Shown: positions 1 to 18,018, counted from the stretch's first letter. The stretch is DNA of 64,000 bases from Amoebidium appalachense (GCA_963693365.1 CAVNZM010000005.1:8068710-8132709), one strand, 5' to 3'. Notes: generated by a model from the letters alone, not told the origin. Program-made: numbers and translations.

Positions 1-3000
1 TGTATTCAGAACTGAAGCAGGCCGAGGGCCGGGGGGGGGGGGGGGGGGGGGGGGTGAGTGGGTGGGGTTTAGTGGGTGGGGTTAGAAAGGGAGGTGGAAA
101 GATTTATTTGAAAAGCAGGCCGAATGGGCCAGTTGGTGGGCACAGCAAGGGAGGTCAGTAAGAGAGAGTTGAGATGGATGAACGGGGGCGGGGTAGGGGA
201 GTGGAAAGTAAGCAAAAAAGAATTGGGGTGGCGGCCGCGGGGGGGGGGGGGGGGGGGGGGGGGGGGGGGGGGGGGGGGGCATGACGCACATGTGGAAGGT
301 GTGAAAGGGGCTTGGAAGGATGGGGGGGGGGGGGGGGGGGGGGGGGGGGGGGGGCAAGGGGGGCAGGGAAGAAAGAGAGTGGGAAAGAGATAGAGAAGGG
401 GCAATAAAACGAGTTGCGGCAGGAGAGAGAGAGAGAGAGAGAAAGTGAGAGAACACAGATGGGAACGTCTGGTGGTTAAAAGAAGATCCAATACGTACTT
501 AAGGGCTTCCCCTTTCGGCTCAATCTGATAGAACTTCTCGTAGGCTTTCTCACCGAGCTCGGCCTCCTCGCTGAGCCCAAGTGTTTTCTTGATTGTGCCT
601 CTCCCCATCTTGAGCTTCGTCATCATGGTCAGCTCTCTGCTCATCGTTTGCACCTTGTTGTGGTGGGTCCCCACCAACATCATTTCTTCTGGAGTCAGGT
701 CGTAATAAATCTGTGTGAAAGCACGTGTCATTACTAGAAACACATTACCAAGTGTGGATACTCATATCGGTGTGCATGTGCATTTGTGTTGATCTTTGCA
801 ATCAATGTCTCGTGTCCCTCTAATGGTGCCGCTTTTGGTGTTACCGTTTGTGTTGTGCTTTTGCCGTTTTCGCTCATTATACCCACACGAATGTGTGTGT
901 GTGTGTGTGCGCGCGCGTGTGTGTGTGTGTGAAACAGCAGAAGCAGCCAGAAGGGCCGGGGCAAAAGGTTCTGGCAGCAAGCATGAAACAATAAAGACAG
1001 AAACTCTGCAAATTGGGCTTCCAGAAGCTCCCTTGTCCATGTTGAGGTCTAACCGCCCTAGAAGTGTTTTACCAAATCCGATGTCTCTCAAATATGAAAC
1101 TTCAAGATCGATCTATTTGAATGTGTCAGGCAATCGACCCGCAGATTATCAATCCGATGAATCTGGTTATTTCCATAATTTAGAAAAATACATTTATTTG
1201 GAATTTAGTCGTTTACTTAATATGGAGGTGGGAAGGGGGATAGGGTCGGCGAAGTGTTTGGAGGGGGGGGGGGGGGGGGGGGGAGGGAAGGCTTCAGGAT
1301 GGGTTTGGCAACTTACGTGTGCAAATATGAAGAGCTTCTTGAACAGCGGGGCATTCTTCCGGATGTCACCTTCTGATTGGACGATGCTCTCGATGGCGCA
1401 GACAGTATGCTGCCCACCCATGCAGGCAAAGGGTCTGGCCTTGTCAGTCGCAGGGACCCTTTTGAAGAACACCTTCTGTGAAGGGGTATTATTTGTCATT
1501 CAGTGGATGCACTCAAACTTGAAAGGAGGAAGCAGGGTAATGGTGGGTGTAGCTGTGTGTGTTTATCGGATGTTGTGTGTGTGTGTGTGGGGGGGGGGGG
1601 GGGGGGGGGGGGGGGGGGGGGGGGGGGGATTGGTGGAGAATATTCCATGAGAGTTCAATGGAGTGGAACCAAGTAATGGGGAAGGGGGAGGATGATCTGA
1701 GTGGGATGAACCGGGGGGGGGGGGGGGGGGGGGGGGATAGGACGTGTTACACGGTACACAGTTATGGTGCGAAAACTATGGAACACACGCAACACAGAAG
1801 GTCGCACGAAGTAACAAAGGGGCCGAAGCAGCCCCCCCCCAGCCCCCCCTCCCCCCCCCCCTTCTTCCCCTCCCCCCTCCCCCTTCCCTCCCCCCCCCCC
1901 CCCCCCCCCCAATAAAAAAAAAGAAGGAAAGAAAGAAAGAAAGAAAGGAAGAAAGAAAGAAGGAAAGAAAGAGAGAGAGAGAGAAAGAAAGAGAGAAAGA
2001 AAGAGAGAAAGAAAGAAACTTTAAGAAAGAGAGAGAGAGAGAAAGAGAGAAAGAAAGAAAGAAAGAAAGAAAGAAAGAAAGAAAGAAAGTGAGAGAGAAA
2101 GAAAGGAAGCAAGAAAGAAAGAAAGAAAGAAAGAAGGAAAGAAAGAAAGAAAGAAAAAAAGAAGGAAAGAAAGAACGAAAGAAAGAAGGAAGGAAAGATA
2201 GAAAGAAAGACAGAAACCAGGGGGAGGGGGTGACTCAGAGTGAGCGAGAGCAAAAGCGGAGATGCAACACAAGCAGAGCCCATGTTCAGGGGGGTCCGGC
2301 GTCATCAACAGTATGGTATGCCTGAGTGGCCGGGGGGAGAGGGGAGGGGGGGGGGGGGGGGGGGGGGGGGCAAGGTGTAACGACGTCCGGAGGGAGCTGT
2401 GAAAAAGACATGAAAAAAAAGGGACTGGTGGGGGGAGGGGGGTCTACGTTGGGGTCCACATGGTCCCTCATGCCGTTGACTTGGTCCTTCAACCACTGCT
2501 TTGACATCCTGTCGGGATGCTCAATGTCCACGTCGTAGCGGTCAGCGTCGGCCTTGGAGAGGTTGAGCACCACCGGGAACATAGGCATGTCGGGTTGCTG
2601 CATCATGGAGGTCTGCACGGCCAACACGTGCTCCTGGAAAATATATTTGTTAATATTTATACTCTTAATGCAGGGTCTAGATAGCAAGCACGGTGTCACA
2701 TAGGGTGTGTAGATGGAAGAAGGAACAGAAGTAAGTGTAATGTTTTAGCTTCAGATGGCTTAATTTCTGATTTGCAGCTGTATCAACATTGGGGAATGTG
2801 CACAACAATTCACCCGTGTGGCTTTGCAGTTCGATAGGTGTCTTCTATTTAACAAACATACAAAAGGCTTGGAACCAACCAAGGAAGGAAGGGAGGGAGG
2901 GAGGAAGGGAGATGGGAGGGAGGACGGCAGGGGGGGGGGGGGGGGGGGGGGGGGGGGCTGGGTACACACCCGATCCACAGGCCTAGGGTTGAAGGGCTCG

Positions 3001-17700: not shown

Positions 17701-18018
17701 CCGGCTGATAGAACTTTTTGGGTGCATTGGTGGTGTCCTGATGGTGTGGCTAGTGATCTGAGATATGACGCAAAACTGCAACCTATGTTTATTCACAAGG
17801 AAGATCCTGCAAGGCAGACTTCCACTACCTTTCCAGTTTTGACTTGCACAGATAAAAGTTTTCAGGGGTTCTATAGGCCGAATGTACAGAAGGAGCAGTT
17901 AAAGGAATATGTTCAATGGATAGACCCTGTGAAATTCGAGAATATGTGTGGGACGATTTCTACCGGAAGTAGTTTTCTTGGAAAATCGGGTAAGGGTAAC
18001 AGGTTCAATGTTGTTTAA
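8703..18018 (+). CDS. Multi-exon Sola-like (DUF7869-type) DDD transposase, one homopolymer frameshift
   Basis: Exons 8703-9298, 9623-9745, 10167-10257, 11879-12136, (unresolved exon(s) near 13.7-14.2 kb), 14696-14858 (GC donor), 16343-18018. Motifs: [65 protein letters not shown]. Removing one A from AAAA at ~17010-17013 fuses ORFs 16323..17060 and 17152..18018 (..[11 protein letters not shown]..). Confidence 0.8.
14926..15890. repeat. ~540-bp tandem duplication in a transposase intron
   Basis: caccaccaccatcattac.tgcacggcacac starts at ~14926 and ~15466; both copies end in gtgcgcaagcacttg. Confidence 0.85.
16174..16292. repeat. Array of five 18-bp palindromes (consensus TCCTAGTTGTAACTAGGA) at 25-26 bp period
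   Basis: Units at 16174, 16200, 16225, 16250, 16275, separated by different 7-8 bp spacers. TGACGTCA at 16166-16173 and 16192-16199. Confidence 0.9.

What the first reader, a model, noticed from the sequence alone, without database searches (positions are those of the whole stretch)
1..18018. ParB/Srx-like gene divergently paired with a Sola-like transposase: candidate large cargo-carrying eukaryotic transposon
Seen: the spliced minus-strand protein has NPR, S..QP..PVV, GGQHT and LTPEE..HHN motifs plus an AT-hook-like GRGRKP. It points away from a spliced DDD transposase, with a ~1.3 kb gap (7378-8702) between the two putative starts. Known: ParB/Srx domains are NTP-binding DNA clamps or nucleases typical of prokaryotic partition and defence systems, and Sola elements are usually single-gene. 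Inference: both genes belong to one >18 kb element in which the ParB-like protein aids element assembly, spreading or chromatin protection. The ORF track hides this gene because it is split over small exons.
Basis: partly seen in the sequence, partly recalled or inferred. Interest (0 to 1): 0.8.

Follow-up and report, generated by a model that had tools for sequence, protein, structure and literature searches.

The report
Giant Sola transposon with ParB-like passenger
In a single-celled relative of animals, a spliced transposase gene and a second spliced gene point away from each other inside what is likely one large jumping element, a layout already described in a brown alga; the second gene likely encodes a ParB-like protein predicted to bind and protect the element's own DNA.

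Summary
The plus-strand gene is a 7-exon DUF7869 (Sola-type, DDD) transposase that matches an Amoebidium transcriptome protein almost exactly. The minus-strand gene has at least 8 exons, is spliced in an RNA-like contig of 4,686 nt, probably starts at 7226 (not 7378) and runs off the window. Both genes lie under equal, flat depth in DNA runs up to a junction at about 18297-18303, so they likely form one young multi-copy element over 18 kb. The pair recurs elsewhere: locus L086 holds a complete 10.9-kb element with TIRs, a 4-bp TSD, the same transposase family, a head-to-head homologue of the domain (E 3e-8) and palindrome arrays at both ends. The window has its own palindrome array. ParB homology is likely but not shown: Atlas lead 0.94, weak profile score, failed folds, and the CTP-binding arginines are missing. 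A giant Sola1 with an opposite-strand ParB-plus-methyltransferase gene is already published for Ectocarpus, so this is a new member of a known kind that extends it to holozoans. The C-terminal half, which decides the mechanism, lies outside the window.

The parts
1..18299 (.). Giant Sola-type DNA transposon, left end outside the window (at least 18.3 kb)
6497..7226 (-). Accessory gene, coding part of exon 1 (transcript reaches 7420); likely start ATG 7226; window lacks one base at 7215/7216; N-terminal region without known family
   Evidence: no match
5066..5218 (-). Accessory exon 2
   Evidence: loose end of RNA-like contig X18 record 3 equals this exon
4690..4830 (-). Accessory exon 3 (predicted, linker)
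   Evidence: GT-AG, phase fits
3915..4040 (-). Accessory exon 4 (predicted, linker)
2970..3198 (-). Accessory exon 5: GRGRKP, start of ParB-like domain (NPRPVD)
2448..2633 (-). Accessory exon 6: ParB-like helix and PVV strand plus an insertion of about 33 aa
1317..1475 (-). Accessory exon 7: GGQHT at the place of the ParB GxxR motif, without arginine
499..710 (-). Accessory exon 8: YYDLTPEE..HHN, end of ParB-like domain
1..11 (-). Probable start of exon 9; about 2.5 kb of transcript lies left of the window
   Evidence: AG acceptor and open frame; 4,686-nt contig arithmetic
7421..8537 (.). Likely bidirectional promoter between the two transcripts' 5' ends
   Evidence: RNA-like contigs stop at 7420 and begin at 8538/8579; contigs cannot prove starts
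8703..9298 (+). Transposase exon 1 (ATG 8703)
   Evidence: P0009; joint GT..AG in X18 and X20
9623..9745 (+). Transposase exon 2
10167..10257 (+). Transposase exon 3
11879..12136 (+). Transposase exon 4
13692..13796 (+). Transposase exon 5 (GC donor)
14617..14858 (+). Transposase exon 6 with CxxC (GC donor)
16343..18082 (+). Transposase exon 7: DUF7869 core with D498, D579 and GHTHEDID (613-620 of P0009); window has extra bases at 16977 and 18015; transcript reaches 18259
16174..16292 (.). Five 18-bp palindromes TCCTAG-N6-CTAGGA at 25-26 bp spacing in transposase intron 6
   Evidence: 6 matches in window at up to 1 mismatch, 0.05 expected
7873..7890 (.). Sixth palindrome copy in the inter-gene spacer (a weaker one at 8169-8186)
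18278..18303 (.). Likely right end; exact last base unresolved between 18297 and 18303; abuts the interior of another, far deeper repeat
   Evidence: X4 record 27 ends at 18299 with 4 unmatched letters; the next repeat aligns from 18298 with a different upstream neighbour in three runs; no second copy of this end in the window

Best explanation
The region holds a spliced Sola-type (DUF7869) transposase gene and a head-to-head spliced second gene, likely parts of one young, multi-copy cut-and-paste element over 18 kb, whose second protein likely has a ParB-derived domain and is predicted to bind the element's own palindromes and shield it from host silencing. Steps: (1) shown - both genes are spliced in RNA-like contigs and face away from a 1.1-kb spacer; (2) inferred - the DDD transposase cuts at short TIRs and makes a 4-bp TSD, as shown for the relative in L086; (3) inferred - the ParB-like domain has lost the CTP-binding arginines, so it would act as a dimerisation or DNA-engagement module rather than a CTP-gated sliding clamp; (4) predicted - the protein is targeted to the TCCTAG-N6-CTAGGA array and the copy in the spacer; (5) predicted - the missing C-terminal part (up to about 800 aa) carries a DNA- or chromatin-modifying domain, most likely an N4C/N6A methyltransferase as in Ectocarpus Sola1-1, that keeps the element expressible in a genome that methylates young transposons. 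Odds: architecture about 0.88, ParB ancestry about 0.8, self-binding protective role about 0.45.
For: Transposase family and transcript identity. Spliced 4,686-nt contig of the second gene. Equal depth over both genes in two DNA runs and a sharp right junction. Independent complete element L086:4124-15030 with 14/14 TIR match, ATAA TSD on both sides, PF25273 transposase, divergent homologue (phmmer E 3.3e-8 among 1,462 ORFs; local score 100 against a maximum of 76 in 1,000 shuffles) and 32 copies of a 12-bp palindrome confined to its two ends. Atlas look-alikes of that homologue: cnidarian and molluscan clusters 0.97/0.95, DUF3723 0.95, ParB_N 0.94. Published counterparts: Ectocarpus Sola1-1_Ec32, 21.5 kb, opposite-strand ParB-like plus N4C/N6A methyltransferase gene, AACCG termini, 4-bp TSD; Bostrychia PAG3 beside inverted-repeat arrays. 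Amoebidium methylates recent TE insertions most. Other DUF7869 loci carry chromatin-type neighbours: N6_N4_Mtase plus SET in L056, OTU in L074 and L061, Ulp1 in L075.
Against: No Pfam, PHROG, NCBIfam or PDB-sequence match to ParB for any window exon or for the L086 homologue. Profile comparison with 56 ParB-like domains is weak: HH probability 3-9%, local score 18.3 against a shuffle maximum of 15.5 (0 of 60) but 16.1 for the reversed alignment; global score not above controls; the window domain alone is not above shuffles (55 of 200 reach it). The ParB-like partner was found in only 1 of 86 DUF7869 loci (1 of the 11 with at least 3 kb upstream). No methyltransferase domain was detected in L086. 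In L086 the palindromes are subterminal, which fits transposase binding equally well. Depth of contigs is not a copy number, and the left end and TSD of the window's element were not seen.
Confidence: 0.55

Rival explanations
1. Same element, but the second protein is a structural co-factor of transposition (pairing or loading the ends of a very long element), or the palindromes are transposase sites and the second protein has no epigenetic activity.
For: In L086 the palindrome arrays flank both ends just inside the TIRs, the place where end-binding proteins of other TIR elements bind (recalled: CACTA TnpA, hAT subterminal repeats). No modifying domain was detected in L086's C-terminal exons.
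Against: In the window the array sits in an intron 2 kb from the end and in the spacer. Published ParB-like passengers are fused to methyltransferase or 2OG-oxygenase domains. Most DUF7869 loci with enough flank lack this partner, so it is not needed for transposition in general.
Confidence: 0.25
2. The domain is a working CTP-gated ParB clamp that loads on parS-like palindromes and spreads along the element.
For: Colinear ParB-like motif order, Atlas ParB_N lead, arrays of 12-18-bp palindromes in both elements.
Against: 55 of 56 ParB-like domains collected keep an arginine at the fourth place of GxxR; the window has GQHT and L086 GNNS. No HTH was tested because the region after the domain is outside the window.
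Confidence: 0.1
3. The minus gene is an ordinary host gene, or passive captured cargo, next to which a Sola element happened to insert.
For: Left end not seen; exons 2-8 were not depth-tested; no close homologue in protein databases.
Against: No depth step or loose end marks an element boundary between the genes in X1 or X4, and the same head-to-head pair lies inside TIRs and TSD in an unrelated eukaryotic contig.
Confidence: 0.08

Closest known systems
Ectocarpus Sola1-1_Ec32 (PMC12477816; passages and supplement rows read)
   Same: Giant Sola (21.5 kb) with a transcribed gene on the strand opposite to the transposase that has a ParB-like domain; its AACCG/CGGTT termini and 4-bp TSD ending in A match the L086 relative (AACCA/TGGTT, ATAA).
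   Different: Brown alga versus ichthyosporean and a probable animal; its protein is 1,104 aa with a methyltransferase, while the window's may reach about 1,400 aa, has about 420 aa before the ParB-like domain and an unseen C-terminus; no palindrome array is mentioned in the passages read. Direct sequence comparison was not possible: the FASTA supplements cannot be read here.
Bostrychia Plavaka accessory gene PAG3 (bioRxiv 10.1101/2025.02.11.637652; passages)
   Same: ParB-like N-terminal domain (itself a weak HHpred hit, E 0.29) in a giant DNA transposon next to tandem inverted-repeat arrays; same self-binding hypothesis.
   Different: EnSpm/Plavaka transposase, three-gene cassette, 2OG-oxygenase C-terminus.
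Sola2-Fanzor1 elements of Dictyostelium and Polysphondylium (PMC3627910; passages and supplement hits)
   Same: Sola elements of about 12 kb carrying a spliced passenger gene, 4-bp TSD.
   Different: Passenger is Fanzor; the Sola2 catalytic motifs printed there (DFKEN, SDG..HFK, HGKS) differ from the window's ([17 protein letters not shown]).
Starship DUF3723 (bioRxiv 10.1101/2021.12.13.472469; passages)
   Same: Conserved passenger of giant eukaryotic transposons; a cluster with DUF3723 on 31% of members is an Atlas look-alike (0.95) of the L086 domain.
   Different: Tyrosine-recombinase elements of fungi; the PF12520 model does not match the L086 gene, so this is a lead only.
Bacterial ParB CTPases / ParB-Srx superfamily (mechanism recalled)
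   Same: Order of motifs along about 120 residues.
   Different: GxRR arginines absent; long insertions; no ParA partner; statistical support weak.

Membership tests
Sola superfamily | DDD transposase | tested here: met
   D498 and D579 invariant in 8 of 8 aligned relatives, GHTHEDID follows; PF25273; the DUF7869 model also scores other Sola-looking ORFs over its cut-off (their Sola labels are recalled). Third catalytic Asp assigned by motif only.
Sola superfamily | TIRs at both ends | tested here: inconclusive
   Only a right junction is in the window. Met for the relative L086.
Sola superfamily | 4-bp TSD | not testable with these tools
   Left end outside the window and no genome held. Met for L086: ATAA/ATAA.
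Sola1 subgroup | Transposase closest to Sola1 references; termini like known Sola1 | tested here: inconclusive
   No Repbase reference available. L086 termini and TSD match Ectocarpus Sola1-1; the window's own end reads ..TACCCTC(CT) and does not show GGTT.
Sola2 subgroup | Sola2 catalytic-core motifs | tested here: not met
   By-eye comparison with Sola2_DFa-2 and Sola2_PPa-1 as printed.
Mobile, multi-copy element | Several copies with different flanks | tested here: inconclusive
   Flat depth, 91 contigs laid in X4 (24 at 95-99% identity), junction at 18298; runs with only 3 million assembled letters hold 91-93% of the words. Single-copy depth was not measured.
ParB/Srx superfamily | Profile or fold match | tested here: inconclusive
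   Atlas 0.94 to a cluster with ParB_N on 32% of members, 142 of 256 features, via the L086 homologue; weak HH score; models at pLDDT 37.
ParB CTPase (clamp) | GxRR arginine patch | tested here: not met
   GGQHT in the window, GGNNS in L086; Arg at fourth place in 55 of 56 prokaryotic domains.
ParB CTPase (clamp) | HTH that reads a palindromic parS | not testable with these tools
   Region after the domain is outside the window; palindromes exist but binding is untested.
ParB + N4C/N6A methyltransferase passengers | C-terminal methyltransferase domain | not testable with these tools
   C-terminus outside the window. In L086 only a by-eye resemblance (LIELFAAPGEWVLEF); no statistical support.
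AT-hook protein | RGRP core (recalled) | tested here: not met
   Sequence is GRGRKP; no Pfam match for exon 5 at E up to 1.

The most novel reading that the evidence does not exclude
Sola1-type transposons from brown algae to ichthyosporeans and animals carry an ancient ParB-parS-like module of their own: the passenger dimerises on element-specific palindrome arrays and lays a protective DNA mark (4mC or 6mA) along the element, and the same domain family underlies the Starship passenger DUF3723, making ParB-derived proteins a general self-recognition device of giant eukaryotic transposons.
Probability: 0.2. Interest if true: 0.82.

Novelty: new member of a known kind. Interest (0 to 1): 0.5.

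Why it matters
ParB-like transposon passengers have been proposed in brown and red algae but never tested. This case extends the Sola-plus-ParB-like layout to a culturable relative of animals with mapped 5mC silencing, where the element looks young and both genes are expressed, and it supplies concrete candidate binding sites in two unrelated elements. That makes the self-binding and anti-silencing idea directly testable. It also ties the Pfam orphan DUF7869 (0 papers) to a TIR element with a 4-bp TSD.

Tried and rejected
No genome held. Protein searches with exon 8 (Atlas: best 0.87, recognition below threshold) and exon 1 found nothing; these are short or single-exon queries and weak evidence. 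No RNA holder on record; X18 and X20 are guessed RNA, one sample, and P0009 may come from the same material, so they are not independent. Viral collection: no relatives of the transposase or of the L086 domain; phage records none. Five other MAGs: L086 domain not found with this query. Single-sequence fold of P0009 (pLDDT 37) gave only sub-threshold integrase/RNase H rows; fold of the L086 domain from a 3-row alignment (pLDDT 37.5) gave best Z 2.4 and no Foldseek hit: uninformative, not evidence against ParB. Methyltransferase in L086: not detected (the comparison used a wrong frame and is void). PF12520 does not hit the L086 gene. The tree of 91 cores is the quick tree only, with a polytomy at the window's branch and without L086; it shows only that [12 protein letters not shown] cores (89 rows; chosen partly by that pattern) are far from one GHTYLPND-type ORF. 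The window's palindrome is absent from 101 of 101 loci, so it is element-specific. Three look-ups in earlier findings returned nothing. Rejected: start at 7378, stop at 18018, AT-hook, Sola2 membership, and reading contig depth as copy number.

Full report
Observation. The minus-strand gene was rebuilt from eight GT-AG exons between 7226 and 499 whose phases fit and which give 640 residues without a stop from position 7212 on. A contig of guessed-RNA run X18, 4,686 nt long, covers 6496-7420 and continues directly into exon 2, while DNA runs X1 and X4 run through the intron side. Subtracting the exons in the window leaves about 2,530 nt of transcript beyond the left edge, and an acceptor with an open frame at position 11 probably starts the next exon.

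The plus-strand gene is a seven-exon transposase. Its last exon matches PF25273 DUF7869 at E 9e-32. A protein search returned 8 relatives, the best 100% identical, filed in EukProt as Amoebidium parasiticum, with a full-length 1,050-aa form P0009. The joined window exons differ from P0009 at 1 of 683 residues before 16977 and at 1 of 345 after it. Three 1-base differences in short homopolymers against only three shared substitutions in the 6.5 kb laid (7407, 9337, 17620) suggest assembly errors, but a dead copy is not excluded.

One element. In DNA run X4 the main contigs stand at depth about 1,600-2,270 over exon 1 of the minus gene, the spacer and the transposase, up to 18299; X1 gives 441 and 437 on the two sides. 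At 18298 depth jumps to about 40,000, and contigs of that other repeat have a different upstream neighbour in three runs. This is what an insertion junction looks like; the last base lies between 18297 and 18303. Multi-copy status is therefore inferred, from flat depth, variant contigs and the presence of 91-93% of the words in runs with only 3 million assembled letters.

Recurrence. An alignment of the transposases fetched the best 80 of 489 confirmed metagenome stretches and 6 loci from genome contigs. The spliced domain was searched against 1,462 ORFs of these 86 loci and hit one: L086:6504-6953, minus strand, E 3.3e-8 (score 100 against a maximum of 76 in 1,000 shuffles). Most loci are too short for the test: 11 of 86 have 3 kb upstream of the transposase, 7 have 4 kb. 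L086 lies on a 733-kb contig inside a bacterial MAG; its introns, Helitron and Tc1-like ORFs show it is eukaryotic, probably animal (inference). It holds a complete element, 4124-15030, with a 14/14 terminal match, ATAA on both sides, the transposase on plus, the homologue head-to-head on minus, and 32 copies of TTGAAATTTCAA confined to 4433-4772 and 13407-14429. The window has its own family of palindromes, five in intron 6 and one in the spacer, 6 found against 0.05 expected. Other loci with long flanks carry different neighbours: N6_N4_Mtase plus SET (L056), OTU (L074, L061), Ulp1 (L075). So passengers are common in this transposase family but the ParB-like one is not universal.

Is it ParB? 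No library matched the exons or the L086 domain. The ESM Atlas placed the L086 domain next to cnidarian (0.97) and molluscan (0.95) clusters, a cluster with DUF3723 on 31% of members (0.95) and one with ParB_N on 32% (0.94, 142 of 256 features). Against a profile of 56 prokaryotic and phage ParB-like domains the motifs are colinear, but the score is weak: above 60 of 60 column shuffles locally, barely above the reversed control, not above controls globally, and not significant for the window domain alone. Both predicted models were too poor to use. The arginine at the fourth place of GxxR is kept in 55 of 56 prokaryotic domains and absent in both eukaryotic ones; from established ParB biochemistry (recalled) this argues against a CTP-gated clamp. 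ParB ancestry is thus likely, not shown.

What is known. The Ectocarpus TE paper describes Sola1-1_Ec32, 21.5 kb, with an opposite-strand gene for a 1,104-aa protein with a ParB-like and an N4C/N6A methyltransferase domain, and proposes that such proteins bind and modify their own element (PMC12477816, passages); its supplement row gives AACCG-CGGTT termini and a 4-bp TSD tending to end in A, as in L086. Its FASTA supplements cannot be read here, so homology of the passengers and the subgroup of the transposase were not tested directly. Bostrychia Plavaka elements carry ParB-like PAG3 beside inverted-repeat arrays (10.1101/2025.02.11.637652, passages). Sola2 elements carry Fanzor (PMC3627910, passages and supplement hits, 2 of 14 files not searched). 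Sola has DDD transposases, 4-bp TSDs and variable termini (PMC10741241, passages; PMC4455052 and 10.1101/2021.09.26.461848, passages). Amoebidium methylates recent TE insertions most strongly (PMC11244446, section 6); that paper's main text does not mention ParB or Sola elements. DUF3723 is a conserved Starship passenger (10.1101/2021.12.13.472469, passages); ParB occurs in none of the 20 of 35 papers listed. Iyer et al. 2011 was not read. Searches found no report of this pair in holozoans; the library lacks most subscription papers and Repbase.

Mechanism and verdict. Shown: two spliced genes head-to-head; a relative with the same pair inside TIRs and TSD; palindrome arrays in both. Inferred: one young multi-copy element, cut-and-paste mobility, ParB ancestry without CTPase function. 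Predicted: the passenger binds the palindromes and brings a C-terminal modifying domain that shields the element. The main rival is that the palindromes serve the transposase and the passenger is a structural co-factor.

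Noticed in passing
window 18856-22992 (-), LTR pieces 18589-18715 and 23213-23339: Copia retrotransposon with one open 1,379-codon frame (gag, protease, integrase, RT); the two LTR pieces are identical over 127 bp and the left LTR is cut short by the repeat at 18298-18589.
   Followed up: partly
window 18298-18589: Internal piece of a repeat about 20 times deeper than the Sola element in run X4 and abundant in RNA-like run X18; identity unknown.
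   Followed up: no
window 23305-25050 (-): 582-codon ORF with a weak Retrotrans_gag match (E 0.005), probably a Gypsy-type fragment.
   Followed up: no
window about 30000-34860 and 48680-53910, genes 42740-46757 (-): Second candidate giant element: long inverted arms with 183-bp tandem arrays (93-96% complementary) around an HTH/pogo-like ORF (43094-43921; label from weak HTH hits and recall) and a JmjC gene (45274-46757; E 6e-9). Termini and TSD not found.
   Followed up: partly
window 58144-63762 (-): Spliced ORF pieces that resemble Plavaka/EnSpm-type transposases by recalled motifs; no Pfam match.
   Followed up: partly
window 7913-7919: Seven bases present in the window and absent from runs X1 and X4, in the inter-gene spacer; possibly a footprint.
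   Followed up: no
window 16179-16217: Contigs in X4 and X14 share two palindromes and then continue with another palindrome variant like the spacer copy: a second array exists elsewhere, perhaps near the unseen left end.
   Followed up: no
window 13796/13797 and 14858/14859: Two GC-AG introns in the transposase gene, confirmed by P0009.
   Followed up: yes
L056:2360-5743 (+): N6_N4_Mtase plus SET ORF (PAG2-like layout) upstream of a DUF7869 transposase.
   Followed up: partly
L086, L088, L089, L098, L100 (G001 contigs C12, C14, C18): Large eukaryotic contigs inside a bacterial MAG; two further fragments of the ParB-like domain on C12, one beside a transposase fragment of another Sola-looking type.
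   Followed up: partly
(L086:6504-6953): Atlas link between this domain family and DUF3723, the Starship passenger; not confirmed by the Pfam model.
   Followed up: partly
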